Shown piece by piece: positions 24,023-61,841 of a DNA stretch of 64,000 bases. Every line of letters starts with the position of its first letter. Position 1 is the first letter of the stretch. The notes beneath the pieces were generated by a model. It searched no databases, had not been told where the DNA came from, and worked only from the letters and a program-made list of their open reading frames with translations. The stretch is taken from positions 130,797-194,796 of the forward strand of contig CP129489.1 of the NCBI GenBank assembly GCA_030584065.1, written 5' to 3'. This DNA is from Flavobacteriales bacterium (GTDB taxonomy: Bacteria; Bacteroidota; Bacteroidia; Flavobacteriales_F; PHOS-HE28). The translations under genes and the position numbers were made by a program.

Positions 24023-24097
24023 GCGCGGCAAAGATGCGGCGGAGGCGCCGAGCCGGGCCATGAGGCGGGGGGCAGCACCGCGGGCTATCTTGCCGGC

Positions 24098-42382: not shown

Positions 42383-42793
42383 TCACTGCTTGCGCTTCCC
42401 AGGGAACCAGCTGGGCAGAGCCTGTTCAAGCGCTTGCCAGTCTGAGGCATCGTACTTGGTGCGCAGGGTCTTGCGGCCGTTTGAGGTGTCGAACTCCCAC
42501 AGGATAGCGTCCCATTCCGTGTAGTGTCCGCTGACGAACCGGTACGACAGCACGTCGTCAGCGCTGAATGAAACGGTCCTGAGCGCGGGCCGGAAGGGAT
42601 AGATGATCTTGATGGCAGTCGGCGTGATCGTGACCCGCTTCAGAGACAGGAACTGGTAGAGCGCGATCGGCAGCATGGCTGCACTGAGCGCAGGATGTTG
42701 AGCTTGGAGGAGGACTGCGCCGAAGAACAGCGCCAGCCCGGCATTCATGGCCAGGCCGAAGTAGTTCGCACGCAGGGTCAGCACAGGTGTCAC
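42383..42793 (-). CDS. Small membrane protein (2 TM + soluble C-terminal part), unknown function
   Basis: GTG at 42793 overlaps the upstream TGA (GTGA); alternative ATG at 42748; more A/T-rich than neighbours by eye. Confidence 0.5.
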   Translation of the reverse strand: MTPVLTLRANYFGLAMNAGLALFFGAVLLQAQHPALSAAMLPIALYQFLSLKRVTITPTAIKIIYPFRPALRTVSFSADDVLSYRFVSGHYTEWDAILWEFDTSNGRKTLRTKYDASDWQALEQALPSWFPGKRKQ

Positions 42794-43803
42794 TTCGCGA
42801 TCACCACGCGCGCGGCGCGGGCTCCATCGATGCGTATGCAATAGACCCCGGTATCCAGGAAGCCCATGTCCATTCCGCTGTTGCCCGCGAGCTGCGACTG
42901 ATGGAGCAGATGCCCCATGCCGTCGAACACCTCGATCACCGCATTCGGCCCGCTCAGGCCATCGATGCGGATCGGACCGCAGGTCGGATTCGGAAGGATC
43001 CGCAGTTGCCCGTCGGTACGCTCGTTCATCCCCATGCTCCCTTCCATCAACCACCCGAGCGCGTCCCGGATGTGCGCCCGGAACAGCGCATCGCTGGTGT
43101 AGTTCTCCGCGGCATGCCCCAGCGCCGTGTAGAACACGCGTGAGCCGTTGGGAAGCATCCGGTACCAGCTCATCGGGCGCGGCGCGTCGTAGCTGTTCAC
43201 CTGTCCGTTGGGCCCCACGGTCTGCTCCACCCGCAGCACCTCCACGTTGTCCGGTCCGTAGTAGCCGCCTTCCCAGTAGTAGTACTCTTCGTTCTTCACC
43301 CACGGATCCGGCAGGTTCACGGTGCTGGCATGCGCGCCTATTAGCTCCATGGCATATTCCGGCGTACCGGCCACATGGTTGGGACTTTCCTGCACGCTGG
43401 CCCCGATCAACTCGGCATAGAAGTCCCAGGTGCCGGTGTTGCCGCCGTTGGCCGTGCTGTGGCGGTAGGTGTCGCTGGCCGCGTGGATGCCCATCACATG
43501 GCCGCCATTGGCCACCCATTCCTCGAAGTTGGCACGCTGCTGCGCGCTAAGGATGGCGTTGCCACTCGTGTTGCCGAAAATGATGACATGGTACTCGGCC
43601 AGGGTCACCGGGTCGCTGAAGGAATCGCCGGTCGCGTCGTCATCCACCGCGGCGCCCAGTTCCTGCGCGATGGACTGGAACAGGGCAAAGGAGACCGCAC
43701 GCGTGCCGTGATCATAGCCTGAGGTGCGGGTGAAGTGCAGGATGCGCGGCTGGGCGGAGGCCACGGTGCCGAGCAGCCAGGCGGAGACAAGGAGCGATCG
43801 CAT
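42790..43803 (-). CDS. ThuA-domain protein with T9SS CTD
   Basis: Signal peptide MRSLLVSAWLLGTVASA; ThuA-like ILHFTRTSGYDHG...GGHVMGIHAASD; CTD LRILPNPTCGPIRI...GVYCIRIDG. Confidence 0.8.
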   Translation of the reverse strand: MRSLLVSAWLLGTVASAQPRILHFTRTSGYDHGTRAVSFALFQSIAQELGAAVDDDATGDSFSDPVTLAEYHVIIFGNTSGNAILSAQQRANFEEWVANGGHVMGIHAASDTYRHSTANGGNTGTWDFYAELIGASVQESPNHVAGTPEYAMELIGAHASTVNLPDPWVKNEEYYYWEGGYYGPDNVEVLRVEQTVGPNGQVNSYDAPRPMSWYRMLPNGSRVFYTALGHAAENYTSDALFRAHIRDALGWLMEGSMGMNERTDGQLRILPNPTCGPIRIDGLSGPNAVIEVFDGMGHLLHQSQLAGNSGMDMGFLDTGVYCIRIDGARAARVVIAK

Positions 43804-43910: not shown

Positions 43911-46900
43911 ATGCGCTGGCTTCCTGCGTGGTTCGTCCTCCTGCTTGCTCATCACCTTGCTCACAGCCAAGGCGGAGCGCATTTCGAATCGCTCCATGTG
44001 CCCGGCATCGAGGACGCCGTGGTGCGTACGGCTGCGGTGGACCGTTTCGGTGCCTTATGGCTGGGGACCAATCGCGGTGTGCACCGGTTCGATGGCTCGC
44101 GCACGGAATCCTACCTGAACGATCCGCTGGACAGCCTTTCGCTCCCCGATGACGTGGTGCATCAATTGGTGTTGGCGCCTGACGGCGCTGTCTGGGCCGC
44201 CACCTTCGGAGGTGCGTGGCGCATCGATCCGCTCAGCGGTGAGCGCAGGAGGCTGCCCTTGGTACGCCGCGATGGAACCACCGGCTCCTACGAATGCACC
44301 GAGCTGTTGTGGTCTGCTGATGGCACCCTGTGGGCCTTCTGCAACCGTTCTGGCCTCGCCCGCCTGGACCCGACGGGTGATCGTTTGTCCGTGCAAGGAC
44401 TTCCGGAGGTGGCCATGGCACGCGGTGGCCATGTGGATGCAGACGGCGTTGTTTGGCTCGCCGACCGCCAGTCCCTGGGTGCATTCGATCCCCGGTCGGG
44501 CACGTGGGTCAAGCATCCATACCGCCACGGCGGGTCATCCGCACCACCGAAGACACTGCTGCTGGATGTGCTGCCGGATGTGCATGACCCGAGCGCGCTC
44601 TGGTGCACCTCGTGGGGTTTGGGCCTGGTGCGTTTCGACCGCAGGAGCGGCGCCTTCGACCGGCAGGCGGTCCGCGCACCGCCGTTGAGCGACCTGGTCA
44701 ACATCACGCCGCATGCGGTGCAGCGGGGCCGCGGGACCTGGTGGTGCAACATGGATGGCCATCTCGTTGAGGTGGATGCCAGCGCAGGCACGATACGCGA
44801 CCTGCCGATGCCCGGTGAGGCCTCGGTCCCTGACCTCACCCTGCTCGCAGACCTGGCCGGGGTAGGGGTCTTGGCCGGATCACCGGGCGTGGTGCACCTG
44901 CACATGCCGGGTAGAGAGGAGCTTCAGCCCGTGGCGGCCACCGCACTTTCGGCGAATACCCACATCGCGCCGGCCTCACTGGATGATGGCTATTGGATCG
45001 TTCGCTTCTACGCGGACCGCGAGGTCATGCACCTTGATGCCGACGGACGCCTCATTGAACGTGTCCCACTGCCAGCCGAGGACCGCCCCTATGAGGCTTT
45101 CCGCGTGATGCAGGATGCCCGAGGCCGCGTCTGGCTGGCGTCGGATCATGGTCTTCTGCGCTATCGGCCCGGAAGTGGTGCGATCGAGCAGGTCCAGGTG
45201 GAGGGAATGGGCGTGGATACTCCGAGACCCAATGTGCTTGACCTGCATGAAGGACCGGATGGGGCAACGTGGGCTGCACTGGGCCAGGATGGTCTGCTCC
45301 GGTGTGACCCGGAGGATGGCGGTGGCCGCTGCTTCCGGCCCCCAGTGGGCGGTGATGGGGGTGCGTCGCAGGTGATCGGCATTGAACGGTATGAAACGGA
45401 CCGCCTCCTGGTGGATCTTGGTCCCGATGGGCCGGCGCTGTTCAACATGGCCTCGGGAGCATTCGAGCTAGTGTGCGGTCCCCGAACGCCCAAGGCGCAG
45501 TTCAGGGCCTCAATGGGCCTCTTGGCGGATGATGCAGGCCGCATCTACGCCCTTTCCCGCAGCCACGGGGTCATCCGGATGCATCGCGATCACGATGGGG
45601 CCTGGTCGATCGAGCGGCGCTGGTTGCCGCCGGAACGGCCCTATTTCGAGTCGGCGGTGAAGGATGCGCGAGGCCGGCTCTGGTTGCTGGCCGGGCGCGC
45701 CTGCTACCTGCTCGATCCCGACACGGAGATCCTGGTCCGGCTCGATCCGCTTCATGGTTTCGCCGCCGTGGTGCACGGCCTGGCGCAAGGCCATGATGGC
45801 GGGATCCTGATCGATTCAGAGGGATGGAAGCGCGTGCGGGCATTCGAACCGTCGCACCCTGAGGCGTGGCTCATGGTGCGCGAGGCCAGGTCCGGTTCCG
45901 ATCCCCTCAGCCTGGTTGCCTTGCAGGCCGATGGGGTGGAGCTGCCGCACACGCGCAACAGCATCCAGCTGGCGTTCGGGGTGGTGGCGCTTTTCGAAGG
46001 GGATGCGTTCACCTACGCCTATCGCATCACACGCGATGGGACGCCCGGCGAATGGGCCGCCCTCGGCCGCCAGCGCTCGTTCAGTCTGCTGGACCTTCGG
46101 CCTGGTGCGTATGAGGTGGACGTGCGGGCCGAGAGCCCATCGTCCAAGCCTGTCGAGGTGCAACTGCGCTTCGTCATCCTGCCGCCCTGGTGGGCACGCT
46201 GGTGGGCGATCGGAACCGGTGCACTGTTGGCCGTGCTGTTCGTGGTGCTGCTCACGCGCATGGTGCTCAACCGGCGGCATCGCGCCCAAGTGCGCGAACT
46301 GGAGCGCGAGCGCGAGCTGGAGCGCGTGCGGATGCGCATCGCGCGCGATATCCACGATGGCATCGGCAGCGGCCTCACCAAGATCACGATGCTCTCGCGG
46401 CAGATGGACGCCTCTGCAGCGCCGCAAGCCGCGCGCATCGCCGAGGCCAGCACCGAGCTCGTGAATGAACTGGGCGAGATCGTCTGGACGGTGGACCCGC
46501 GCAACGACAGCTTCGCTTCCTTCCTGGCCTACGTGCGCAGCATGCTTGGGCGTCAGTTCGAGGACCTGCAGGTGCAGCTGATCGCAGATCTGCGCTGCGC
46601 CGATGCCGACCGCGAGCGTACCATCGGCCCGGAGCTGAAGCGCAACATCCTGCTCGTGCTGAAGGAGGCGGTGAACAATGCGCTCAAGCACAGTGGCGCC
46701 GCGCGCATCGCCGTGCAGCTTCACCTGGGCACGAGCCAGGTCGAGCTCCTGGTGCGCGACAACGGCCACGGATTCGATCCGCAGCGGATCCGGGAAGGCG
46801 CCAACGGGCTGGCCAACTTCAGCAAGCGCGCCGAGGCCTTGGGCGGCGCCGTGAAGGTGGATACGGGCCCTGCGGGCACCACTGTCACGTTTCAGGTGCC

Positions 46901-46922
46901 GCTACCCCCCACGAACATGTGA
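43911..46922 (+). CDS. Sensor histidine kinase with periplasmic beta-propeller/Y_Y_Y-type sensor and HisKA_3 core
   Basis: Signal peptide, repeated propeller-like ...LWLGT/VWAAT... units, single TM (WWAIGTGALLAVLFVVLL), H-box IARDIHDGIGSGL, N-box NNALKHS, G-box DNGHGFD. Confidence 0.9.
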   Translation: MRWLPAWFVLLLAHHLAHSQGGAHFESLHVPGIEDAVVRTAAVDRFGALWLGTNRGVHRFDGSRTESYLNDPLDSLSLPDDVVHQLVLAPDGAVWAATFGGAWRIDPLSGERRRLPLVRRDGTTGSYECTELLWSADGTLWAFCNRSGLARLDPTGDRLSVQGLPEVAMARGGHVDADGVVWLADRQSLGAFDPRSGTWVKHPYRHGGSSAPPKTLLLDVLPDVHDPSALWCTSWGLGLVRFDRRSGAFDRQAVRAPPLSDLVNITPHAVQRGRGTWWCNMDGHLVEVDASAGTIRDLPMPGEASVPDLTLLADLAGVGVLAGSPGVVHLHMPGREELQPVAATALSANTHIAPASLDDGYWIVRFYADREVMHLDADGRLIERVPLPAEDRPYEAFRVMQDARGRVWLASDHGLLRYRPGSGAIEQVQVEGMGVDTPRPNVLDLHEGPDGATWAALGQDGLLRCDPEDGGGRCFRPPVGGDGGASQVIGIERYETDRLLVDLGPDGPALFNMASGAFELVCGPRTPKAQFRASMGLLADDAGRIYALSRSHGVIRMHRDHDGAWSIERRWLPPERPYFESAVKDARGRLWLLAGRACYLLDPDTEILVRLDPLHGFAAVVHGLAQGHDGGILIDSEGWKRVRAFEPSHPEAWLMVREARSGSDPLSLVALQADGVELPHTRNSIQLAFGVVALFEGDAFTYAYRITRDGTPGEWAALGRQRSFSLLDLRPGAYEVDVRAESPSSKPVEVQLRFVILPPWWARWWAIGTGALLAVLFVVLLTRMVLNRRHRAQVRELERERELERVRMRIARDIHDGIGSGLTKITMLSRQMDASAAPQAARIAEASTELVNELGEIVWTVDPRNDSFASFLAYVRSMLGRQFEDLQVQLIADLRCADADRERTIGPELKRNILLVLKEAVNNALKHSGAARIAVQLHLGTSQVELLVRDNGHGFDPQRIREGANGLANFSKRAEALGGAVKVDTGPAGTTVTFQVPLPPTNM

Positions 46923-46957
46923 TACCGCCGCTGCTGCTTGCGGGTACCTTCGCTTTC

Positions 46958-47587
46958 ATGTCCATCCGCATTGCCATCATCGAGGACGACGCCGACATGC
47001 GCCTCGCCTTCGAGCGCGCCATCCGGGAAGCCGGTGACCTGGACCTGAAGGGCAGCTTTCCCCATGCGGAGGCCTTCCTTGCCCGGCCGGAAGGGCTCGA
47101 TGGGCTGGACGTGGTACTCTCCGACATCAACCTGCCCGGACAGAGCGGCATCGAGGTGGTGGCCCAATGCAAGCCCAAGCGGCCCCGGCTGCAGTTCCTC
47201 ATGATCACCGTGTTCGAGGACAATACCAATCTGTTCAGTGCGCTTTGCGCCGGAGCGACGGGCTATCTGCTGAAGACCGCCACGCCGGCGGAGATCGCGC
47301 AGGCGGTGCGCGACATCCATGCCGGCGGCTCGCCCATGTCGCTCGCCATCGCGCGCATGGTGGTGGCCAATGTGCAGCAGAAGAAGGCCAGTGCCCGGCT
47401 CGTGGAGAGCCTCACGCCGCGCGAGCACGAACTCGTAAGGCTCCTGGCCGATGGCTACCGCTACAAGGAGATCGCCGACCGGCTCGCCCTGAGCGTGGAG
47501 ACCGTGCGGTCCTACATCCGCGCCATTTACGGCAAGCTGCAGGTGCATAGCCGCACCGAAGCGCTCAACAAGGTGTTCGACCGGTGA
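46958..47587 (+). CDS. NarL/FixJ (LuxR-type) response regulator
   Basis: Start MSIRIAIIEDD; phospho-acceptor VVLSDINLPG; LuxR HTH LTPREHELVRLLADGYRYKEIADRLALSVETV. Confidence 0.9.
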   Translation: MSIRIAIIEDDADMRLAFERAIREAGDLDLKGSFPHAEAFLARPEGLDGLDVVLSDINLPGQSGIEVVAQCKPKRPRLQFLMITVFEDNTNLFSALCAGATGYLLKTATPAEIAQAVRDIHAGGSPMSLAIARMVVANVQQKKASARLVESLTPREHELVRLLADGYRYKEIADRLALSVETVRSYIRAIYGKLQVHSRTEALNKVFDR

Positions 47588-47639: not shown

Positions 47640-50600
47640 TCAGGGCAGGCTGCCGAGCCGCACCGCCGTGGGCACCGAGCCGCCGATGTTCTGCAGCACC
47701 GGGTCGCGGTCGTTGCCGTCGCCCACGTACTTCACCAGGCCATCCAGCGAGATGTCCTCCATGCGATAGCCTGCGATGGTATTGGTGGGCACGTTGCCGC
47801 CGATGGCCACCAGCATGAGGTCGCGGTCGTTGTCCTCGCCCACATACTTGAGCCTGCCGTCGCCATTCACATCGCCCGCCCACAGGCCCAGCGGCGCATT
47901 GCCGCCGCTCAGCTGCTTGCGCGCCTGCGCGCCGTAGGTAGGAAGCGCGGCGCTGGTGAGGTCGATCGGCGCTTGCAACCCATCCATGTGGATCGCATCC
48001 TGCGTCATCGCGCCGAGGTGATTGCGGTGCAGCACCGCTGCATGGTAGCTGCCGGTGGGAACGGCCAGGAAGGTGAGCGGGCTCGATCCGTCCGTGTCCA
48101 CAATATCGCCATCGCGCTGCAGCAAGCCGGCACGGCGGGCTACCACCTGCTGCGGGGCGCCTTGTGCGCGGAGCTCCACCAGCACCCAGTCCACGATCGC
48201 ATTCGGGCCGGTGGCCTGCAGGGCGAAGGATCCCAGCTCCTCGCTGCCATCATGGAACCACGGCGCGCCGCCATAGGGGTGCTGCGCAGGGATGAGGCCG
48301 GCGATGCGCAGGTTGTCGCGCATCAGGCCGGTGGCCGGTACCCACGCGCCATCGAGCACGGCGCGCACGGGTACCTGCAGGCTCATGGCGGTGGGCGGGA
48401 CGACCGAGAAGTATCCATACGGGCAGTGGTCGCCCGAACCGGAGGCGCTCAGCGGAGTCGCGCGCCATGTGTAAGCGCCAATCGGGAGCGCGTTAAGCAA
48501 CAGGTCGGTGCCGAATGCGGTAACGGGGAAGCCGTCGACGGGGTCCGGTGCGTAGGCCGTGATATCCAGCAGCTCGATGAGGTAGCTGGTTGCCGTGGGG
48601 GAGGATGTCCATTCAAGGTGTATCGGCGCGCCCTCTTCGATCTCCTCGAACGGAGCAGGAGCGATCAGGCTGGCGCAAGGCGGAGGTGCGGTGCGGTGCA
48701 GGCAGATGGCGAAGCTGCCGGGCACGTCGTAGCCCAGGTTGGTGAAGGCGCGAAGCCGGTAGAGCGCGTTCTGCTGAACAGGCAGGAGCAAGGTACCGTC
48801 GACCCCGGACTGGCACCAGACCGGCACGCCCGTACAGCCGGTACCGTTGTCCATATACAGTTCCAGGCTGAGCCCGGATGCGCTGCCCAGATAGACTTCG
48901 GCCACTACGGGCGTCATGCCCGACTGAAAGGTGAACCAGACATCCGGCCATGGGCCATTGTTCTCGAACGCGTGGGTGTCGCAGGTGGGCGTGGGGCCGT
49001 CCTGCAACGCGCCGCCCGCATTGTTCCCGGGTGTTGCCGCAACCGGATAGTCGGTATTCCAGGGGTGGACGGCCAACGGTGTCGCATTCGCGCAATCATC
49101 GTTCGGCGGTACGGGGCAATGGATCGTGAAGGTCAAGGAGACGTCGTTCGTGGTGGGCTGGTCCACCATGATCAGGTAGTCGACCCCTTCATTGAACCAG
49201 CGCGGTTGCGCCTCCTCATAGGGACCGGTCAGTTCATCCCAGCAGGAGAAGCTGCCCTGCTCGGCGCAGAATGTCGGGCTGGCATCGGGCGACTCCTCGA
49301 GCACGCTGTAGTGAAGCGTTGCTCCCGTACCCGTTTGCGTGAGTGTGTGGTAGCCGCTGGCACCGGGGCTGAAGCGGAAGATGCGCTCCTTGCCCGGAAG
49401 GCTGGGGGTGGGGTTTCCCGGAGCGCAGGAGTTCCAGTCCTTGCCGCCTTGCCCGCTGCCCAGTACCACGAACCGCGGCGTGCCGCAGGTAACGGGCTGG
49501 ATGTCCGTGCAGGCTTCGTAGGTCGGGCACTCGATCCGGAAGGCCAGCTGTCCTCCGGTCATGCTCGAGGCATCGATCATCAGCCAATAGAGCATGCCGC
49601 CGGTGAGGTTCATCGTGCCCACCTCACTCGTTCCCTGCCGATAACCGATGCACATCCAACCATCGGTGCAGGAGCCGAAGCCTGCGGCCCTGTAGGCATA
49701 GCGGTAGGTGGTGTAGTCCCCATCGCCGTCCATCATCTGGATGACGCTGAACACTCCGCTCTCCGTCGGCATGAAGGCATAGATCCGTTCACGCCCGGGC
49801 ATCGGATCGCCGCCGCAACCGGGCAGTTGAAGGAGTCCGCCCGCGCCGGAGGGCACATTCACGGGCATATCCGTGTTGCAGGTGACGGAACCCATCATGC
49901 TCGTGTTGCAGACGTTGCCGCTGGCTGCACATCCCATGACGAATTGGACCGTTTGGCCGGTGGTGGCCAGCGCATCCAGCATCACCAGGTAGGTAGTGCC
50001 CGCCGTCATGCTGTAGGTAGAGGTGACACCGGCCCCGCTGATGCCGCCCAGGCAGGTCCAACCGGATCCATTGCAGCCGCCGGATTGCGGCTTCACGTAG
50101 TAGTTGATGGTGCCGTTGGAGGTGAACTGCTGGAAGAAGCGCTGCCCTCCCTCCGCGGCGGTGTAGGTGAAGATGCGCTCGCGGCCGGGCGTGTTCGCCC
50201 CGCAGCTGCTGCCTGGGTTCAGGTAGCTGCCGTTCCCTGTTCCTAATTGCACGGACATGGGCTCGTTGCATCCGGCCAGCGGCTCGGTCAAGGCGCAGGC
50301 ATCGTAAGGACTGCTGCATTCAAGCTGGAAGGAGAGGATGCCGCCGTTGCTGGATTCCGGGTCGGCCATGATGAGATAGGTGATACCCTGGAGCATGGTG
50401 AATGCCCCGCTCAGCTCCGCGCCGAACAGGTCATCGATGCAGGTCCAACCGGCGGCGCTGCATCCATTGGCTTCAGGCTTGAAGAAGTAGTCGGTCCAAT
50501 CGTAAGCGGTGAATTGCCTGATGTTGTAGGTCCCCGAATAGGGTGCCGTGAAGCGAAGGATCTGTTCACGCCCGGGCGTGCTGTACCCGCAGGTGTTCTG

Positions 50601-52322
50601 CGGCGCGCTGTAAGCCCCCTGGCCCGGTGCGATGCTCCGTGTGACGGGGATGCCGCAGGCGAGGTTCACGATGGCCGCACAGGGGTCGGCCGGGGGAGGA
50701 GGGCAGTTCACGCGCATGGTATAGCTGCTCGTGAGGTAGGCGTACAAGGCATCGGCCATGATGTAGTAAGGCACGCCTGCCTCCAGCGTGATGGGTGGCG
50801 TTGTGCCAGGGCCGTTCAGTGATCCGATGCAGGACCATCCCATGGATGAGCAGCCTCCGGATTGCGGCTTGATGAAGTAGCGCATCATCTGTCCCTGGGT
50901 GAGCATCGTCTGTTCGATGGTGTGCGCTCCCGTTTGATCAGGGGTGAAGGCATACAGGCGCTGCTTCCCCCACGATCCGCTGATTCCGCAATAGCCCGTC
51001 AAGCCGTTCCAACCGCCGGTTCCGCTCACCGTTGCTGAAGCAGGCAACCCGCAGCTCAGGTTGCCGATCGCGGAGCAGGGGTCCTCGACAGCCGAGCAAT
51101 CAATGGTGAATGTGACCGAAGCGCCCGTGGTGTAGGTTCCATTCAACCGGAAATAGTAGGTCATGTTCGGCTTCAGGGACGTGGTGATGGAGCCTGCGTT
51201 CGGCGCCCAGTCCATGCACTTGAACTCGCAGGGGCGGGTGGGGTCGCCCTTCGACACCAGCCAGGTCACCGGTTCGGATGCGTTCTGGGTGATGGTATAG
51301 TCGCCTCCGAGCACGGTGGTGAACGCGAAGACACGGGTCTTGCCCAAGGTCAGCAGTCCGCATTCCAATGATTCCCCGGCCATGCCGGCTCCCGATGGTA
51401 TGGTCACACTGTACGTGTTCCCGCAACTGATGGGTGTCGGTGACAGGCAGGGGTCGGGCTGCAGGGTGCAGCCAAGCTGAAAGGAGACGTCACCTTGGGT
51501 GGTGGCCTCCGGATCGGCCAAGAGGAGGTAGCGCACCCCTTCGCTCACGGTGAAGGAAGTGCTGCTCGCATTGCCGGTCAGGGTGCCGACGCAGGTCCAG
51601 CTGGTGGCGCCGCAGCCTTGGCTTTCCGGCTTGTAGTACCAGCGGACCGGCGCATGTGAGGCGAGCTGCTGCAGCACCATGGAGCCGCTTGATCCGGGCA
51701 CGAAGAGGTACGCCCGTTCCTTGCCTGTGCCGCTGCCGCTGCCGCAGGAAAGGTCAAAGACGCCTGCACCGCTGCCGTGCGTGGCCGTGTAGGTGGTTGC
51801 ACAGCGTATCTCCGTCCTTGCCTCGCAAGGCTGGAAGGCGGGGCAGGTCACGCACCGCCACGAAGGCTGGTACTTCCGTGTGGTGTATGGGGTGATGTAG
51901 CAACCATCCTCCCGTAGTCCCAGGATCACCGTTCCGGATTGGTCCGCGGTCCAGCGGATCTTCGGGAAGGCGCCGCAGACATCGTCGGAATAGCAGAGGA
52001 AGCTGCCATCCGCACGCATCAGGGTGAAATTGATGTCCGATGGGTAGTAGGGTATCCCGGCGCCGTCCGCCGGGCAGGAGGACCATTCATAGGTCTCGCC
52101 GGCGGTGACCGGGAAGCTCGCGGACCAACTGGGTTGGATCCAGACCCCGGAGGTGGTGAAGTGCGATGCGCTGGTGGCCGGAACCGTAGCGGTTGAGGGG
52201 CCGCCAGTGTAGGTGCATGCCTGGGGCTGGCATTCCCCGGGCTGGGAATAGGCCTCGTGCGCGGTGATCAGCAGCAGGCCGGCGATGAGGCAGGGGAGCG
52301 GGGTGGGGCAGCGGAGATCCAT
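47640..52322 (-). CDS. Giant secreted protein: seven tandem Cys-framed modules + PPC-like domain + Fn3-like segment + conserved C-terminal module with two DxNxDG Ca-binding-type repeats
   Basis: ATG at 52322 (GTG at 52340 also in frame); signal peptide CLIAGLLLITAHEAYSQ; no T9SS CTD at the C-terminus (ends ...NIGGSVPTAVRLGSLP). Confidence 0.85.
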   Translation of the reverse strand: MDLRCPTPLPCLIAGLLLITAHEAYSQPGECQPQACTYTGGPSTATVPATSASHFTTSGVWIQPSWSASFPVTAGETYEWSSCPADGAGIPYYPSDINFTLMRADGSFLCYSDDVCGAFPKIRWTADQSGTVILGLREDGCYITPYTTRKYQPSWRCVTCPAFQPCEARTEIRCATTYTATHGSGAGVFDLSCGSGSGTGKERAYLFVPGSSGSMVLQQLASHAPVRWYYKPESQGCGATSWTCVGTLTGNASSTSFTVSEGVRYLLLADPEATTQGDVSFQLGCTLQPDPCLSPTPISCGNTYSVTIPSGAGMAGESLECGLLTLGKTRVFAFTTVLGGDYTITQNASEPVTWLVSKGDPTRPCEFKCMDWAPNAGSITTSLKPNMTYYFRLNGTYTTGASVTFTIDCSAVEDPCSAIGNLSCGLPASATVSGTGGWNGLTGYCGISGSWGKQRLYAFTPDQTGAHTIEQTMLTQGQMMRYFIKPQSGGCSSMGWSCIGSLNGPGTTPPITLEAGVPYYIMADALYAYLTSSYTMRVNCPPPPADPCAAIVNLACGIPVTRSIAPGQGAYSAPQNTCGYSTPGREQILRFTAPYSGTYNIRQFTAYDWTDYFFKPEANGCSAAGWTCIDDLFGAELSGAFTMLQGITYLIMADPESSNGGILSFQLECSSPYDACALTEPLAGCNEPMSVQLGTGNGSYLNPGSSCGANTPGRERIFTYTAAEGGQRFFQQFTSNGTINYYVKPQSGGCNGSGWTCLGGISGAGVTSTYSMTAGTTYLVMLDALATTGQTVQFVMGCAASGNVCNTSMMGSVTCNTDMPVNVPSGAGGLLQLPGCGGDPMPGRERIYAFMPTESGVFSVIQMMDGDGDYTTYRYAYRAAGFGSCTDGWMCIGYRQGTSEVGTMNLTGGMLYWLMIDASSMTGGQLAFRIECPTYEACTDIQPVTCGTPRFVVLGSGQGGKDWNSCAPGNPTPSLPGKERIFRFSPGASGYHTLTQTGTGATLHYSVLEESPDASPTFCAEQGSFSCWDELTGPYEEAQPRWFNEGVDYLIMVDQPTTNDVSLTFTIHCPVPPNDDCANATPLAVHPWNTDYPVAATPGNNAGGALQDGPTPTCDTHAFENNGPWPDVWFTFQSGMTPVVAEVYLGSASGLSLELYMDNGTGCTGVPVWCQSGVDGTLLLPVQQNALYRLRAFTNLGYDVPGSFAICLHRTAPPPCASLIAPAPFEEIEEGAPIHLEWTSSPTATSYLIELLDITAYAPDPVDGFPVTAFGTDLLLNALPIGAYTWRATPLSASGSGDHCPYGYFSVVPPTAMSLQVPVRAVLDGAWVPATGLMRDNLRIAGLIPAQHPYGGAPWFHDGSEELGSFALQATGPNAIVDWVLVELRAQGAPQQVVARRAGLLQRDGDIVDTDGSSPLTFLAVPTGSYHAAVLHRNHLGAMTQDAIHMDGLQAPIDLTSAALPTYGAQARKQLSGGNAPLGLWAGDVNGDGRLKYVGEDNDRDLMLVAIGGNVPTNTIAGYRMEDISLDGLVKYVGDGNDRDPVLQNIGGSVPTAVRLGSLP
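49116..51830 (-). repeat. Seven tandem ~120-130-aa cysteine-framed protein modules (coding repeat)
   Basis: Each module: C...SG.G...CG...G(K/R)E(R/Q)(I/L)(F/Y).F.P..G...I.Q....Y..K....GC...GW.C(I/L)G......L..G..Y.(I/L)M.D......(F).(I/L).C. Residues 171-1075 counted from the 52340 start. The loops are divergent. Confidence 0.8.
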
Positions 52323-52569: not shown

Positions 52570-54402
52570 ATGAAACACACAGCGAACAATCCCAAGCGGT
52601 CGCCCGCCGCTGCGCAGAGCCTCAACCACTGGACCTTGCTGCTGGTGGCCATGCTCGGTTTGCTCCTGCTGCTCCTCGGCGGTTGCCGGAAGGACGAGGA
52701 GGATGCAGCCGCGCCGTCATCCGCGCCCATGGCCACCGGCACCACGCGCGTGCTGGGCCAGGTGGTGGATGGCTCCGGCGCCCCCTTGCCCGGCGTGCAG
52801 GTGCAGTCCGGCAGCGCATCGGCCGTGACCGATGCGGCGGGCATGTTCTTGCTCGGCAGCGCCCCGGCGAACGAACGCGTGGTGGTGCGTTGCCAGAAGG
52901 CGGGCTACTTCAACGCGGTGCATGGCACGGCGGCCCACCTCAACGGCACCACGATCGTACGCGTGTCCATGCGGTCCAGCGCGCCTGACTTCACCGGTCT
53001 CTCATCCGATTCGCCGCAGGACCTGCAATTGCCGGATGGATTCCGCCTGCAGCTGCCGGCCAACGGGCTCGTCACCGCAACGGGAGCGCCCTACGCGGGC
53101 ACCTACGCCGTGGCTGCGGAGCACTTCGCCACGGATGCGCCGGACTTCAGCGCGGCCATGCCGGGTGGCGACCTTACGGCCATCGCGGGCGGCACGCAAC
53201 AGCAGCTCTACAGCTACGGCATGGCCAGCGTGCGCATCACCGATGGCGCGGGCAACGAGCTGCAGCTGGGCAATGGGGCCTCGGCCACCATCCGCCTGCC
53301 GATCGCGGCCGATCAGAGCAGCGAGGCGCCCGCCACCGTTCCGCTGTGGCACCTCAATGAGCAGACGGGCATCTGGGAGCCGGAGGGCGAGGCCCAGCGC
53401 CAAGGCGGCGAGTACGTCGGCGTGGTGCAGCACTTCTCCACCTGGAACGCGGATGCCGCATGGCCGCGGGCGCGCGTTCGGGGCCGCGTGCGCGTGGAAG
53501 GGGATGAGGAGCTGGCGCCGCTGCTGCCCTTGCGCATCCGGCAGGTGAGGACCTATCCGCGTTCCGATGGGGAGTTCGACGCGTTCGTCCCTTCGGGTGT
53601 CGACCTCACCGTGGAGGTGGATGCGAACCCGATCGGCCTCACGGCCGCGCCGATGCCCATCGGCACGTTGGCGGCCGATGCCGAGCAGTACGTGGAGCTG
53701 TTGGTGAACACGCCGGGCTACATCGTGGGCACGCTCATCTGCCCAAGCGGCACCGTGAACGGCTATGCCATGGTCACCTGGTCCGGCGGCTCTTACTTCA
53801 TGCCGCTCGGGGCCACCCCCGAGTTCCGCATCGCTGCGCCGTACAATGGGCAAGAGGCCACGCTCCGGCTGGTGAACCTGAACGGCGGCATCGTGCAGGA
53901 GGTCTCCGTGTCGCTGCCCACCGCGCCGGGAGGTGAAGCGGATGCGGGCACCATCACCCTCTGCAACGGCGGTTCTGGCGGCGGGCTGCAGGCGGGCTGC
54001 GTGCTCAACGGCGATGGCTACAATCAGCAGACCGTGGTGCTTGACCCGGCCGCCGGCATGGCCACCGCCACCTACTATGCCGCGGACAATACCACGCAGC
54101 TCTTCGTTGTGGATGGCGGCGGCGGTCCGCAGCTCTACGGGGAATGGCTGGGCAGCGCCACCGGCAACTGCGCCACGGTGGAAGGCGAAGGCGACTGCAG
54201 CATCACCCTGGTCATCGATGGGCGCTACTACTTCCCCTACAACCTCCAGGTCGGGGTGAACCTGTACGGCCCGGTGGGCGGCGAGGTGCAGGGCATCTTC
54301 CTCGGCACCATGGTCCGGTACGACACAGGGACCGGCGAGGAGGTCTTCGTGACCGTGAGCAATGGCTACTTCCGCGCGCAGCGAGCGCCGGATGAGCCGT
54401 AG
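52570..54402 (+). CDS. Lipoprotein with N-terminal CarboxypepD_reg-like domain
   Basis: Start MKHTANN...; lipobox LLLLLGGC; TRVLGQVVDGSGAPLPGVQVQSGSASAVTDAAGMFLL; start choice uncertain (earlier in-frame Met codons exist). Confidence 0.75.
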   Translation: MKHTANNPKRSPAAAQSLNHWTLLLVAMLGLLLLLLGGCRKDEEDAAAPSSAPMATGTTRVLGQVVDGSGAPLPGVQVQSGSASAVTDAAGMFLLGSAPANERVVVRCQKAGYFNAVHGTAAHLNGTTIVRVSMRSSAPDFTGLSSDSPQDLQLPDGFRLQLPANGLVTATGAPYAGTYAVAAEHFATDAPDFSAAMPGGDLTAIAGGTQQQLYSYGMASVRITDGAGNELQLGNGASATIRLPIAADQSSEAPATVPLWHLNEQTGIWEPEGEAQRQGGEYVGVVQHFSTWNADAAWPRARVRGRVRVEGDEELAPLLPLRIRQVRTYPRSDGEFDAFVPSGVDLTVEVDANPIGLTAAPMPIGTLAADAEQYVELLVNTPGYIVGTLICPSGTVNGYAMVTWSGGSYFMPLGATPEFRIAAPYNGQEATLRLVNLNGGIVQEVSVSLPTAPGGEADAGTITLCNGGSGGGLQAGCVLNGDGYNQQTVVLDPAAGMATATYYAADNTTQLFVVDGGGGPQLYGEWLGSATGNCATVEGEGDCSITLVIDGRYYFPYNLQVGVNLYGPVGGEVQGIFLGTMVRYDTGTGEEVFVTVSNGYFRAQRAPDEP

Positions 54403-57105: not shown

Positions 57106-57696
57106 TCAGCGTGCGATCACCACGCGCTGCTCGCGGCGCAGCGTGCCATCGCGGTCGGTGATGCGGAGCACGTAGGTGCCGGGCGCAAGGCCGGCCACCG
57201 GCAGGCGGTCGTTGCCCGTGAGGGGGCTTTGCAGCGCCTGGCGGCCTTGGGCATCGATCAACAAGGCCGTGCCGCCAGCGGCCTCCGGCTGCTGCACTGT
57301 CAGCTCCTGGGCGACGGGGTTGGGGAAGACCAGGGCGATGCGCTCCGTCAGCGGCTCACGCACACCGGTGCCGCTCTCCACCACGATCCGCCCCTTCATG
57401 CCCATGCTGGCGTGCGGGATGCAGACGTAGTAGTAGGTGCCGGGGTCGGTGAGCGTGAGCTGGTGCGTGCCCGAGTTGAAGTTGAAGCCGCCTGGCAGTG
57501 CCGTGTTGCCGTTGGCGTTCCACGTTGCTTCGCTCACCTGGGTGAAGGTGTGCCCCCCGCCCAGGGTGATGGTGATCTCCGTGCCCGGCGGCACGGTGAG
57601 CAGGTTCGGGTTGAAGGTGAAGTTCGACTGGTTGATGGTCTGCGCACCAGCAGCGGTGGCCAGCAGTGCGGAGAGTACGGTGTAGGGTGCCTTCAT
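57106..57696 (-). CDS. Cupredoxin (plastocyanin/azurin-like blue-copper) protein with T9SS CTD
   Basis: Signal peptide MKAPYTVLSALLATAAGA; ligand pattern GGGHTF ... YYYVCIPHASMGM; CTD LVFPNPVAQELTV...GTYVLRITDRDG. Confidence 0.85.
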   Translation of the reverse strand: MKAPYTVLSALLATAAGAQTINQSNFTFNPNLLTVPPGTEITITLGGGHTFTQVSEATWNANGNTALPGGFNFNSGTHQLTLTDPGTYYYVCIPHASMGMKGRIVVESGTGVREPLTERIALVFPNPVAQELTVQQPEAAGGTALLIDAQGRQALQSPLTGNDRLPVAGLAPGTYVLRITDRDGTLRREQRVVIAR

Positions 57697-57766
57697 GGGA
57701 GTTCGGTTGGGGTTAAGACGCGCGGCGCGCCCGTTCCGCTGCCCGGCGGTGCCGAACGGTTCGCGC

Positions 57767-58399
57767 TCAGGCCATGGCGTAGAGCGCGGCGCCCACCAGC
57801 CAGGTGAGGAGGAAGCTGATGTAGGCCAGCCGCAGCGGGCGGTATTTTTTCCGCGCGATGTAGTGGCCGTGGCTGTGGAGCTCCTCCAGGATGGCATCGT
57901 GGGTGCGGGGCGGCGAGGAGAGCACCTCGTGCATGCGTCGCTTGTAATCCGGAAGCGAGAGCTGGATGAAGGAGGTGAAGAAGAGCAGCGAGAAGCCCTT
58001 GGGCAGCGGCGCCCCATCGGGCAGCTGCCGGCCCAGGGGCGGCGCCTTGGGCAGCGTGGAGTAGGCGCAGAGCAGGATGGTGGTGAGCGCACCGAAGACC
58101 ATCACCCAGTAGTGGGCCTTGGGGCCGGTGAGCGCATGGTCAGACACCTTGCTGAGCGCGAACTGCAGCAGCACCGCTGAGAGCGTGAGCATCAGGTTCG
58201 CCTTCAGGTCGCTCATCTGGCTCACCGTCATCAGGTTCCACCGACTCTGGATGAGCAGGTGGTCGCGATGGTCCGCCTGATAGGGATCCACATCCTCGTA
58301 GCGCGCCGGAGGTGCGGCTTCGGAGTCGCGGAGGGGCTGCTCGGGCCGGGGTGGCTCGGGGGTGGGCTGCTGCCTGTCGTCGACGGGGGGCTGTGACAT
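57767..58399 (-). CDS. PycTM/DUF5706-like membrane protein (Pycsar-effector-type domain) with Pro/Glu-rich N-terminal extension
   Basis: SDLKANLMLTLSAVLLQ, LLFFTSFIQLSLPDYKRRMHEVL, HGHYIARKKYRPLRLAYISFLLTWLV match my memory of the DUF5706 pattern; not verified by search. Confidence 0.6.
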   Translation of the reverse strand: MSQPPVDDRQQPTPEPPRPEQPLRDSEAAPPARYEDVDPYQADHRDHLLIQSRWNLMTVSQMSDLKANLMLTLSAVLLQFALSKVSDHALTGPKAHYWVMVFGALTTILLCAYSTLPKAPPLGRQLPDGAPLPKGFSLLFFTSFIQLSLPDYKRRMHEVLSSPPRTHDAILEELHSHGHYIARKKYRPLRLAYISFLLTWLVGAALYAMA

Positions 58400-58437
58400 G
58401 CCCCAAAGAAAGCGGCTCCGTGCACGCAGCGCCCCGC

Positions 58438-60021: not shown

Positions 60022-60040
60022 GGTTGGTGATTCGGGGGAT

Positions 60041-61708: not shown

Positions 61709-61841
61709 CGGAGGGGCGTTGTCTGCGTTCGACAAACGAAGTTAGCGATAGTTGCATCGCGCCGTAAAGGGGGCAGCCCCGTTTTTTGGACGAACTATCA
61801 CCAGCCGCCGGTTGAAGGCCCGTTCCGGGCCCACCGGCCGC

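What the first reader, a model, noticed from the sequence alone, without database searches (positions are those of the whole stretch)
47640..52322. Giant secreted protein built from seven tandem cysteine-framed modules, with no recognisable anchoring or sorting signal
Seen:
- After a signal peptide and a Cys-rich N-terminal region, residues about 171-1075 form seven consecutive 120-130-aa modules.
- The modules share a rigid scaffold: an opening C; SG.G; CG; G(K/R)ER(I/L)(F/Y).F.P; Y..K....GC; GW.C(I/L)G; Y.(I/L)M.D; a closing (F).(I/L).C. Each module has about six conserved Cys, and short PC/AC linkers join them.
- The intervening loops are highly divergent.
- Next come a DDCANATPL...DVWFTF PPC-like domain, an Fn3-like segment, and a conserved C-terminal module (VDWVLVELR, LLQRDGDIVD) ending in two DxNxDG...NDRD repeats reminiscent of dockerin/EF-hand Ca sites.
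- Unlike eight other secreted proteins in this window, it has no T9SS CTD.

Inference: the scaffold order resembles pre-peptidase C-terminal (PPC) beta-sandwiches. The constant-frame/variable-loop design across paralogous modules suggests a multivalent binding array (lectin- or adhesin-like), disulfide-stabilised outside the cell. I do not recognise the module as a named family.
Basis: partly seen in the sequence, partly recalled or inferred. Interest (0 to 1): 0.7.

Follow-up and report, generated by a model that had tools for sequence, protein, structure and literature searches.

The report
Giant surface protein with dockerin-like tail
This is a real 1560-residue secreted protein from an uncultured Flavobacteriales bacterium, built from seven ordinary PPC-type binding modules; its unusual feature is a 254-residue C-terminal domain resembling the cellulosome's "X-module + dockerin" anchor, which sits where related proteins carry a type IX secretion tag.

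Summary

**Modules.** They are not a new fold. AlphaFold2 plus Foldseek and a profile hit place them in the PPC / collagen-binding-domain β-sandwich superfamily. They belong to a large family with no Pfam or NCBIfam model (2733 clusters at 50% identity). That family occurs in similar arrays in many giant Bacteroidota proteins, most of which end in a type-A T9SS tag. Divergence between modules is uniform, not concentrated in loops.

**C-terminus.** The claim of "no anchoring or sorting signal" is probably wrong. The last 254 residues form a domain found in at least 1261 proteins of uncultured Flavobacteriales. It almost always ends at the last residue and is attached to unrelated passenger domains. 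It was never found together with a T9SS CTD. Its best structural matches are cellulosomal X-module-dockerin units. A distant relative carries a bona fide Pfam dockerin after a homologous β-sandwich.

**Best reading.** A surface adhesin held or sorted by a dockerin-like C-terminal domain. No partner was identified, the route across the outer membrane is unknown, and neither anchoring nor sorting was tested.

The parts
52242..52322 (-). Signal peptide (residues 1-27). Predicted SPase I cleavage ...AYS|QPGEC leaves an N-terminal Gln. No lipobox follows the hydrophobic region.
   Evidence: Read from the sequence. The ortholog P0002 has the same 27-residue leader. Cleavage site and absence of a lipobox are inferred, not tested with a predictor.
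51828..52241 (-). N-terminal 8-Cys domain (residues 28-165). Homologous to a ~125-aa unit repeated four times in P0012, a BACON/PKD protein with a T9SS CTD, and to a segment of the F. johnsoniae adhesin RemA.
   Evidence: BLAST to P0012 repeats; alignment A5; profile hit to RemA 8gl6_D residues 246-334 at E 1e-5. Not related to the seven modules (hhalign probability 4%).
49116..51827 (-). Seven tandem six-Cys modules M1-M7 of PPC / collagen-binding-domain fold. Residues 166-1069; individual DNA spans 51468-51827, 51096-51449, 50703-51077, 50316-50681, 49929-50297, 49527-49910, 49116-49511.
   Evidence: repeat significance; structure and fold match; 2LUW PPC, E 2.3e-5; family of 2733 clusters.
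48702..49094 (-). Eighth β-sandwich domain, GBD_T9SS_assoc type (residues 1077-1207, DDCANATPL...DVWFTF). A distant sister of the seven modules.
   Evidence: Pfam PF23759 at 23.2 bits here and 28.5 bits in ortholog P0002. hhalign against the module profile gives probability 61%, E 8e-5, with three Cys in register. Not detected by the 7-module HMM.
48405..48695 (-). Fn3-like spacer (residues 1210-1306); assignment unconfirmed.
   Evidence: No Pfam or PDB sequence hit. Relatives P0005 and P0010 have a true fn3 directly after their GBD domain. It is the least conserved segment between orthologs (29% identity).
47913..48404 (-). N-terminal part of the C-terminal domain (residues 1307-1470): lead-in segment plus a β-sandwich ('X-module-like') with the motifs VDWVLVELR, LLQRDGDIVD and YH.AV.HRNHLG.MT.
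   Evidence: AF2 model with pLDDT 94.1 and pTM 0.91. Foldseek top hits are XDoc units. A homologous sandwich precedes real dockerins in P0274 and P0142.
47643..47912 (-). Dockerin-like tail (residues 1471-1560). Two ~40-aa repeats of the form (W/Y)..D.N.DG.(L/V)KY.G..NDRD..L..IGG.VPT, ending in ...R..(Q/S)LP at the stop codon.
   Evidence: Internal duplication and family consensus. Each repeat is modelled as loop-strand-helix. The DxNxDG loop aligns in register with true dockerin half-repeats. Pfam Dockerin_1 is only sub-threshold: 4 of 23 members, best E 0.0066.
52570..54402 (+). Divergently transcribed neighbour: a ~610-aa predicted lipoprotein (LLGGC lipobox) with a CarboxypepD_reg domain. 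Syntenic in all three ortholog loci. Context only; no functional link shown.
43911..47587 (+). Convergent two-component system: a Reg_prop/HisKA_3 sensor kinase (43911-46922) and a LuxR/GerE response regulator (46919-47587). Syntenic in all ortholog loci. Context only.

Best explanation
The gene encodes a giant, Sec-exported, disulfide-rich surface binding protein (an adhesin type) of an uncultured Flavobacteriales bacterium.

**Shown.**
- Behind a signal peptide lies a RemA-related N-terminal domain.
- Next come seven β-sandwich modules of the PPC / collagen-binding-domain superfamily. They belong to a large unnamed family that is normally found in arrays in T9SS cargo.
- One GBD_T9SS_assoc domain and a spacer follow.
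- The protein ends in a 254-residue two-part C-terminal domain: a β-sandwich plus a duplicated dockerin-like loop-helix unit.
- That C-terminal domain ends at or within nine residues of the C-terminus in every member examined. It is shared by more than a thousand otherwise unrelated secreted proteins of this clade. It occupies the position that a type-A T9SS CTD holds in related module-bearing proteins.

**Inferred.**
- The PPC-type modules and the N-terminal domain act as a rigid multivalent binding stalk for an insoluble protein or polymer ligand.
- The C-terminal domain works like the X-module-dockerin of cellulosomal scaffoldins. It would dock the whole protein non-covalently, perhaps with Ca2+, onto an unidentified cell-surface partner, with the N-terminal end pointing outward.
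- The ligand, the partner and the way the protein crosses the outer membrane are all unresolved.
For: **Architecture and repeats:**

**Module fold and family:**
- The module 4 model has pLDDT 91.4. Its Foldseek top hits are 5sv5 (collagenase PPC domain) and 1nqj and 3jqw (ColG and ColH collagen-binding domains), with TM 0.6-0.76. The module profile hits PPC domain 2LUW at E 2.3e-5.
- The family has 2733 clusters at E<=1e-3. At least 98 of 153 top carriers end in a type-A CTD, 4 have an XDoc-like or partial terminus, and none has both.
- The N-terminal domain hits RemA 8gl6_D at E 1e-5.

**C-terminal domain:**
- At least 1261 homologs, nearly all from Flavobacteriales MAGs, with diverse passengers such as fn3, PKD, PA14, P_proprotein, GEVED, delta-60, MAM/choice-of-anchor J, lactonase propeller, YDG, Calx-beta and M43 peptidase.
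- The domain ends exactly at the C-terminus in 121 of 129 proteins and in 71 of 72 ORFs.
- At least 589 loci in GTDB species representatives, several per genome, including clusters of 3-4 adjacent genes.
- The model has pLDDT 94.1. Foldseek ranks type II XDoc structures first: 4u3s_B, 5k39_B, 4wi0_B and 2b59_B at probability 0.92-0.99 and TMt 0.47-0.58, with 4fl4 chains lower at probability 0.60-0.75 and TMt 0.30.
- Relatives P0274 and P0142 have the homologous HRN β-sandwich followed by canonical dockerin F-hands at the extreme C-terminus. P0274 scores 31.1 bits on Pfam Dockerin_1, above the 22.9 cutoff.
- By a crude hydrophobic-stretch test, 71 of 102 family proteins starting with Met have signal-peptide-like N-termini and only 7 have a lipobox-like motif; several of the rest start inside the conserved domain, so look like fragments or miscalled starts.

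**Selection and context:**
- Purifying selection acts on every domain; dN/dS is 0.20 for the C-terminal domain.
- The host uses the T9SS for other cargo in the same window.
Against: - No cohesin-like or other partner was identified. No gene recurs next to family members; the best real cluster appears in 5 of 79 loci. No cohesin domain was seen in the neighbours examined.
- The fold match to XDoc is modest: best E 1.5e-3, RMSD about 6 Å, and no hit below E 1e-3.
- Pfam Dockerin_1 is never reached at threshold in this family.
- The canonical Ca-ligand positions 9 and 12 are not conserved in register, and across the family the invariant part is NDRD..L..IGG rather than DxNxDG.
- Without a recognised T9SS signal, no known route takes a 160-kDa protein across a Bacteroidota outer membrane, so a periplasmic location is not excluded.
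- No ligand or binding activity has been shown for this module family.
- Many family members are short standalone proteins, which fits a functional domain as well as it fits an anchor.
Confidence: 0.5

Rival explanations
1. The 254-residue C-terminal domain is a new, fourth class of T9SS secretion signal. The T9SS or a dedicated shuttle protein would recognise it, so its main role would be outer-membrane translocation rather than docking to a cohesin-like receptor.
For: - The domain ends at or within nine residues of the C-terminus and its last Pro is invariant.
- It is confined to a T9SS-bearing clade and sits in gene clusters beside type-A cargo.
- It never co-occurs with type-A CTDs on proteins carrying the same passenger modules.
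- Its passengers are typical T9SS cargo domains.
- CTD classes outside A and B already exist (type C, ChiA), and type-B signals may need more than 200 residues (PMC10202324).
Against: - No sequence match to any type A, B or C model in Pfam or NCBIfam across 68 members.
- At 254 residues in two parts, it is far larger than the roughly 70-100-residue Ig-like CTDs. Its extreme C-terminus is a loop-helix repeat rather than a β-sandwich.
- No adjacent PorP/SprF-like partner, unlike type-B cargo.
Confidence: 0.3
2. The C-terminal domain is a ligand-binding head of its own, for example a Ca-dependent carbohydrate-binding or haemagglutinin-type domain with FG-GAP/VCBS-like loops. It would be neither an anchor nor a signal. 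The protein would then be released, or periplasmic, as a soluble multivalent binder.
For: - Many family members are little more than a signal peptide plus this domain.
- One is named 'hemagglutinin protein' by NCBI.
- There is a weak FG-GAP_3 hit to the first repeat (E 0.026-0.08).
- The strand-loop-strand geometry around DxNxDG resembles FG-GAP Ca loops.
Against: - A binding head has no reason to sit always at the extreme C-terminus with an invariant last residue.
- It would also have no reason to exclude T9SS CTDs.
- The best fold matches are XDoc units, not lectins or propellers.
- Relatives have true dockerins in the same position.
Confidence: 0.12
3. One reading: an unanchored secreted lectin- or adhesin-like array whose paralogous modules keep a constant disulfide frame while their loops diversify to generate different binding specificities.
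For: - The Cys frame and the PPC-like fold are real.
- Length variation between modules falls in loops.
- Modules are only 22-37% identical to each other.
Against: - Substitution divergence is uniform across strands and loops (28% versus 23% identity, p=0.32).
- Each module is strongly conserved between orthologs, with dN/dS 0.10-0.36.
- The protein does carry a shared C-terminal domain that is a plausible anchor.
Confidence: 0.08

Closest known systems
PPC (pre-peptidase C-terminal) domains and the collagen-binding domains of clostridial collagenases (ColG s3b 1NQJ, ColH s3 3JQW, B. anthracis collagenase PPC 5SV5, Vibrio metalloprotease PPC 2LUW)
   Same: Same β-sandwich fold (TM 0.6-0.76). 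Profile-level sequence similarity to 2LUW (E 2.3e-5). These domains also occur in tandem in secreted proteins and bind insoluble substrates (established knowledge for ColG and ColH).
   Different: No peptidase is attached. Each module has six conserved Cys in place of the Ca-binding N-terminal linker of collagen-binding domains. There are seven to eight copies. The Pfam PPC model is not matched. No ligand is known.
Pfam PF23759 GBD_T9SS_assoc (galactose-binding-domain-like domain of T9SS cargo)
   Same: The eighth domain is of this type. The seven modules alternate with it in relatives such as P0005. They share three Cys positions with it in the profile-profile alignment.
   Different: The seven modules do not match the Pfam model at any threshold, and the profile-profile probability is only 61%. 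I read them as a separate sister family. No function has been assigned to PF23759 either.
Type II X-module-dockerin (XDoc) of cellulosomal scaffoldins (C. thermocellum CipA 2B59/5K39; A. cellulolyticus ScaA 4U3S/4WI0)
   Same: A C-terminal β-sandwich directly followed by a duplicated loop-helix module at the very end of a giant multi-module extracellular protein. These are the best structural matches. A bona fide Pfam dockerin occupies the same position in relative P0274.
   Different: The host is a Gram-negative, T9SS-bearing Flavobacteriales bacterium. The repeats are about 40 residues instead of about 22, with KY.G..NDRD replacing the canonical N..D half of the loop. The Pfam dockerin threshold is not met. 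No cohesin partner is known. The domain is attached to over a thousand different proteins rather than to a scaffoldin.
T9SS C-terminal domains, types A (PF18962/TIGR04183), B (PF13585/TIGR04131) and C (ChiA type)
   Same: Always at or within a few residues of the C-terminus of Sec-exported proteins, on the same kinds of passenger domains, in the same genomes and gene clusters.
   Different: No sequence similarity to any of the three classes. About three times longer. A two-part fold with a helical repeat at the end.
Giant T9SS-secreted adhesins of Flavobacterium johnsoniae (RemA, SprB)
   Same: Very large, repetitive, Sec-exported surface proteins. The N-terminal domain is homologous to a RemA segment. 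Relatives combine the module with SprB repeats (P0135).
   Different: RemA carries a type-A and SprB a type-B CTD (established knowledge; PMC10202324, PMC12618676), whereas this protein has neither. No lectin domain is detected here.

Membership tests
PPC superfamily (Pfam PF04151 / collagenase collagen-binding-domain fold) | β-sandwich fold superposable on solved PPC and collagen-binding domains | tested here: met
   AF2 model of module 4 (pLDDT 91.4). Foldseek top hits 5sv5, 1nqj, 3jqw and 2o8o, with TMt up to 0.76.
PPC superfamily (Pfam PF04151 / collagenase collagen-binding-domain fold) | Sequence match to the family, either to the Pfam model at its gathering score or to a solved member | tested here: inconclusive
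   No PF04151 hit for the protein or for single modules, even at E<=10. The 16-sequence module profile does hit PPC domain 2LUW at E 2.3e-5, 27.9 bits.
PPC superfamily (Pfam PF04151 / collagenase collagen-binding-domain fold) | Located C-terminal to a secreted peptidase | tested here: not met
   No peptidase domain anywhere in the protein.
PPC superfamily (Pfam PF04151 / collagenase collagen-binding-domain fold) | Ca2+-dependent binding of collagen or another insoluble substrate | not testable with these tools
   Needs biochemistry.
Pfam PF23759 GBD_T9SS_assoc | Match to the model at the gathering score (27 bits) | tested here: inconclusive
   Domain 8 scores 23.2 bits and its ortholog in P0002 scores 28.5 bits. 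The seven modules give no hit. hhalign of the module profile against the GBD-type alignment gives probability 61%, E 8e-5.
Dockerin / type II X-module-dockerin | Match to Pfam Dockerin_1 (PF00404) at the gathering score (22.9 bits) | tested here: not met
   1 of 68 full domains at E 0.31. 4 of 23 isolated tails, best E 0.0066. No PDB dockerin found by sequence.
Dockerin / type II X-module-dockerin | Tandem duplication of a Ca-loop (DxNxDG...D) plus helix segment | tested here: inconclusive
   There is a clear duplication of a ~40-residue unit, each modelled as loop-strand-helix. The DxNxDG loop aligns in register with true dockerin repeats, but positions 9 and 12 differ. DxNxDG is not invariant in the family.
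Dockerin / type II X-module-dockerin | Overall fold: β-sandwich X-module packed against a C-terminal dockerin | tested here: met
   Foldseek ranks 1, 2, 3 and 6 are XDoc chains (probability 0.92-0.99, TMt 0.47-0.58), though the best E is only 1.5e-3. A homologous sandwich precedes a bona fide Dockerin_1 (31.1 bits) in P0274.
Dockerin / type II X-module-dockerin | A cognate cohesin partner encoded in the genome | not testable with these tools
   No cohesin or recurrent partner gene in the neighbourhoods examined. Whole genomes could not be scanned.
T9SS C-terminal sorting domains (types A, B, C) | Sequence match to PF18962/TIGR04183, PF13585/TIGR04131 or the type-C model | tested here: not met
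   Nothing in Pfam or NCBIfam for the protein or for 68 family members. A custom type-A HMM that finds 7 other window ORFs does not hit it.
T9SS C-terminal sorting domains (types A, B, C) | At the extreme C-terminus of Sec-exported proteins in T9SS-bearing Bacteroidota | tested here: met
   Ends at the last residue in 121 of 129 proteins and 71 of 72 ORFs. Signal-peptide-like N-termini in 71 of 102 members by a crude test. Type-A cargo occurs in the same window and loci.
T9SS C-terminal sorting domains (types A, B, C) | Compact Ig-like β-sandwich of about 70-100 residues | tested here: not met
   254 residues; a β-sandwich plus two loop-helix repeats.
T9SS C-terminal sorting domains (types A, B, C) | T9SS-dependent secretion | not testable with these tools
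   Needs genetics or proteomics. The lineage is uncultured.

The most novel reading that the evidence does not exclude
The 254-residue X-module-dockerin-like domain defines a previously undescribed C-terminal surface-anchoring or sorting system in a Gram-negative, T9SS-bearing clade of uncultured Flavobacteriales. It would be a cohesin-dockerin-type display mechanism, or a fourth class of T9SS signal. It is used by more than a thousand different cargo proteins in parallel with classical type-A CTDs, and this giant adhesin is one of its cargos.
Probability: 0.35. Interest if true: 0.75.

Novelty: new variant of a known kind. Interest (0 to 1): 0.55.

Why it matters
The seven-module array, the headline of the finding, is one more giant Bacteroidota surface protein built from PPC-type β-sandwiches. 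Its value is mainly for annotation: a family of about 2700 clusters has no Pfam or NCBIfam model.

The C-terminal domain matters more. Bacteroidota are thought to deliver and anchor large surface proteins through T9SS CTDs of types A, B and C, or through lipidation. Here an abundant uncultured Flavobacteriales clade, seen mostly in wastewater and freshwater MAGs, attaches a different, much larger domain to at least 1261 secreted proteins. That domain ends at or within a few residues of the C-terminus in every member examined and resembles an X-module plus dockerin.

If it is an anchor, dockerin-type non-covalent display extends to a Gram-negative outer surface on a large scale. If it is a secretion signal, it widens the definition of T9SS cargo and would change secretome predictions for these organisms. 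Either way the domain gives a concrete, portable handle for experiments, for example as a fusion tag.

Tried and rejected
- **Pfam and NCBIfam** on the whole protein and on each piece gave nothing for the modules, the N-terminal domain, the Fn3-like segment or the C-terminal domain.
- **Word-indexed homolog search** with the module alignment returned nothing, not even the query protein. I treat that as a tool limitation; the exhaustive HMMER search replaced it.
- **PDB sequence searches** with the C-terminal domain profile and the tail profile found no meaningful hit.
- **Foldseek against viral structures** gave nothing meaningful for the C-terminal domain.
- **Conserved neighbour next to C-terminal-domain genes** in 79 loci: only antisense artefacts and one ORF cluster present in 5 loci.
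- **Cohesin domains** in the neighbours of the target, of two short family members and of the two true-dockerin relatives: none.
- **Lipoprotein anchoring rejected.** The Cys residues in the leader precede or lie inside the hydrophobic region, and there is no lipobox.
- **N-terminal domain as a ninth module rejected** (hhalign probability 4%).
- **Loop-focused diversification rejected**.
- **Literature searches** for dockerins in T9SS Bacteroidota, for PF23759 and for additional CTD classes found no description of this domain.
- **Public names** for family members are almost all 'hypothetical protein'.
Full report
**1. The gene.**
The finding's coordinates hold a single long ORF on the minus strand. 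It starts at ATG 52322, stops at TGA 47640-47642, and encodes 1560 aa with 59 Cys. GC3 is 0.81, typical of real genes in this 65% GC window.

Three orthologs at 71-75% identity exist in metagenomes and in one GTDB MAG. The full-length ortholog P0002 starts at the equivalent position.

Every domain is under purifying selection, with dN/dS between 0.10 and 0.52.

The N-terminus is a signal peptide with a predicted ...AYS|QPGEC cleavage site and no lipobox. This is read from the sequence and is an inference.

**2. The repeats are real.**
Seven modules lie at residues 166-285, 292-409, 416-540, 548-669, 676-798, 805-932 and 938-1069.

All 21 module pairs are significant by BLASTP, with E between 4e-4 and 5e-30. 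Each module is recovered by an HMM built from the other six, with E between 7e-13 and 3.5e-29 at Z=1e6. M2 is the most divergent.

**3. What the module is.**
Pfam and NCBIfam have no model for it.

An AlphaFold2 model of module 4 is confident (pLDDT 91.4, pTM 0.85). Foldseek places it with the PPC domain of a Bacillus anthracis collagenase (5sv5) and the collagen-binding domains of ColG and ColH (1nqj, 3jqw), at TM 0.6-0.76. The claudin-binding domain of C. perfringens enterotoxin follows. A profile of 16 modules hits the Vibrio metalloprotease PPC domain 2LUW at E 2.3e-5.

The eighth domain (1077-1207) is of the Pfam PF23759 GBD_T9SS_assoc type. It scores 23.2 bits here and 28.5 bits in the ortholog, against a cutoff of 27. 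A profile-profile comparison links it to the modules only moderately (probability 61%, E 8e-5), with three Cys in register.

The module is a distinct, unnamed family within a known superfamily.

**4. The module is common, and so are arrays of it.**
An exhaustive HMMER search of 1.84 billion representative proteins finds 2733 clusters at E<=1e-3, 1013 at E<=1e-10 and 222 at E<=1e-30. Many have 5-13 copies.

Carriers combine the module with GEVED, fn3, SprB, HYR, MopE, PA14 and GBD_T9SS_assoc domains. With a custom HMM, at least 98 of the 153 best carriers end in a type-A T9SS CTD. This is a lower bound, because several 'no-CTD' proteins are fragments or have CTD-like ends.

**5. Divergence is not loop-focused.**
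I mapped the DSSP string of the model onto the seven-module alignment and excluded the invariant Cys. Strand columns average 28% pairwise identity and non-strand columns 23% (Mann-Whitney p=0.32). Only indels are confined to loops.

Between orthologs, M1-M5 are 81-92% identical, with dN/dS 0.10-0.30. M6, M7, M8 and the Fn3-like segment are only 29-61% identical and have higher dS, a mosaic pattern that suggests recombination.

The modules are old, individually constrained paralogs. They are not a diversifying loop library.

**6. The other pieces.**
The N-terminal 8-Cys domain (28-165) is homologous to a unit repeated four times in P0012, a T9SS protein with BACON and PKD domains. Its profile hits a segment of the F. 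johnsoniae gliding adhesin RemA (8gl6_D, E 1e-5). It is unrelated to the seven modules.

The Fn3-like segment could not be confirmed. Relatives do have an fn3 in that position.

**7. The C-terminal domain is the interesting part.**
*Distribution.* Residues about 1307-1560 match the extreme C-termini of five large proteins with unrelated passengers. A dedicated search finds at least 1261 proteins, nearly all from Flavobacteriales MAGs. None has a Pfam assignment for this region, and their N-terminal domains vary widely. Public names are almost all 'hypothetical protein', and one is 'hemagglutinin protein'.

*Position.* The domain ends exactly at the last residue in 121 of 129 proteins and 71 of 72 ORFs. 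The other proteins end within nine residues of it. The last Pro is invariant and the consensus ending is R..QLP.

*Copy number and taxonomy.* GTDB species representatives hold at least 589 copies, several per genome. Some loci have 3-4 adjacent genes that all end in it. One of these is an M43 peptidase with GEVED and PKD domains, and the clusters sit beside type-A CTD genes. The window's organism belongs to the same clade: its BipA is 94-95% identical to MAGs that carry many copies.

*Export signals.* By a crude test, 71 of 102 family proteins starting with Met have signal-peptide-like N-termini and only 7 have a lipobox-like motif. Several of the rest start inside the conserved domain, so look like fragments or miscalled starts.

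*Not a known CTD.* It is not a type A, B or C T9SS CTD by any Pfam or NCBIfam model. It was not found together with a type-A CTD in any protein examined.

**8. What the C-terminal domain looks like.**
The AF2 model is very confident (pLDDT 94.1, pTM 0.91). It shows a lead-in segment, a β-sandwich, and then two strand-loop-strand-helix repeats.

Foldseek's best PDB matches are the type II X-module-dockerin units of cellulosomal scaffoldins. 4u3s_B, 5k39_B, 4wi0_B and 2b59_B score probability 0.92-0.99 and TMt 0.47-0.58; 4fl4 chains rank lower (probability 0.60-0.75, TMt 0.30). The best E is only 1.5e-3 and RMSD is about 6 Å.

The last 90 residues are an internal duplication of a ~40-residue unit: (W/Y)..D.N.DG.(L/V)KY.G..NDRD..L..IGG.VPT. 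By sequence, Pfam Dockerin_1 is touched only below threshold.

Two distant relatives among the module carriers give an independent link. P0274 and P0142 have a β-sandwich homologous to this one, with the shared YY.AV.HRN motif (i-Evalues 6e-5 and 4e-7). It is followed at the extreme C-terminus by canonical dockerin F-hand pairs. P0274 passes the Pfam Dockerin_1 gathering score (31.1 against 22.9 bits).

Aligned with those true half-repeats, our DxNxDG loop is in register, but the second half of the loop is remodelled.

I conclude that the domain is an X-module-dockerin-like unit, probably derived from that arrangement. It is not a Pfam dockerin member.

**9. Context.**
Three orthologous loci share the same neighbourhood. 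A CarboxypepD_reg lipoprotein is divergent upstream. A LuxR-type response regulator and a Reg_prop/HisKA_3 kinase are convergent downstream, followed by ThuA. These orthologs are close relatives, so the synteny says little about function.

No cohesin-like gene and no recurrent partner was seen near any family member examined.

The window has at least seven other ORFs with type-A CTDs, so the host uses the T9SS.

**10. Mechanism.**
*Shown:* the domain composition, folds, family sizes, positional rules and selection.

*Inferred:*
- The protein is a rigid multivalent binder (adhesin type). The PPC and collagen-binding-domain precedent and the RemA-related N-terminal domain point that way.
- The C-terminal domain works like an XDoc, holding the protein on the cell surface through an unidentified partner.

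*Main rival:* the domain is a new class of T9SS signal. The two are not mutually exclusive. A ligand-binding 'head' role is less likely, given that the domain always sits at the C-terminus and is never found with a CTD.

*Unresolved:* the partner, Ca dependence, the ligand and the route across the outer membrane.

**11. Literature.**
A 2023 review lists three T9SS CTD classes, A, B and C (PMC10202324). I found no paper describing this domain or PF23759.

**12. Verdict.**
The module array is an ordinary member of a large but unnamed PPC-type family. The claim that the protein lacks any anchoring or sorting device is probably wrong, because the C-terminal XDoc-like domain is the best candidate for that role. 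That domain is a new variant of a known kind and is worth experimental follow-up.

Noticed in passing
window 23099-26101 (+): A 1001-aa protein with a full-length PF10136 'SpecificRecomb' site-specific recombinase domain (E 1e-178).
   Followed up: no
window 36898-39357 (+): An 820-aa protein with a Peptidase_S74 domain at residues 592-651. This is the intramolecular chaperone of phage endosialidases and tail spikes. A C-terminal tail is hit by my custom type-A T9SS CTD HMM (E about 5e-7) but not by Pfam. It may be a tailspike-like protein routed through the T9SS.
   Followed up: partly
window 42793-43803 (-): A ThuA-domain protein with an ~85-residue C-terminal extension. The custom type-A CTD HMM hits it (E 3e-7); Pfam Por_Secre_tail does not at E<=0.001. 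The same ThuA gene is syntenic in the ortholog loci.
   Followed up: partly
window 57109-61735 (-): A plastocyanin/azurin-like copper protein with a T9SS CTD (57109-58092). Next to it is a DUF1501 protein with a T9SS CTD (58441-60078) and its usual DUF1800 partner (60044-61735).
   Followed up: no
P0036, P0027, P0066, P0032; P0033, P0098, P0128, P0049 (other Flavobacteriales MAGs; e.g. L002 10001-10963, L004 10001-10930): Short standalone proteins (about 300-360 aa) made of a signal peptide, a small N-terminal segment and the XDoc-like domain. One group has repeated GGxGRGD motifs. Another has a conserved 'SWSxGEPxIGTG..GGIITQGFQQP' motif. Neither is explained.
   Followed up: partly
window 47643-49910 versus 49929-51827; L086 3073-7746: Divergence from ortholog P0002 is mosaic. 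M1-M5 are 81-92% identical, with dS 0.23-0.76. M6 through the Fn3-like segment are 29-61% identical, with dS 1.0-1.5. A third ortholog (P0003) is 74% identical to the window in domain 8, against 44% for P0002. This suggests recombination between alleles.
   Followed up: partly
L084 7262-12041; L085 6877-11656: In two independent assemblies the ortholog is split into a 232-aa ORF and a 1346-aa ORF. This could be a frameshift, a pseudogene or phase variation.
   Followed up: no
L002 1-12490; L004 2316-13746: Clusters of three or four consecutive genes that all end in the XDoc-like domain. Their passengers include LTD-domain giants and an M43 peptidase with GEVED and PKD domains. They lie next to type-A CTD genes and an OmpH-DUF4924-LptD block.
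   Followed up: partly
P0274 residues 1082-1225; P0142 residues 1880-2005 (loci L087, L088): Module-bearing giant proteins from other organisms that end in a β-sandwich plus a canonical dockerin. Pfam Dockerin_1 scores 31.1 and 18.4 bits. No T9SS CTD is present and no cohesin gene is nearby.
   Followed up: partly
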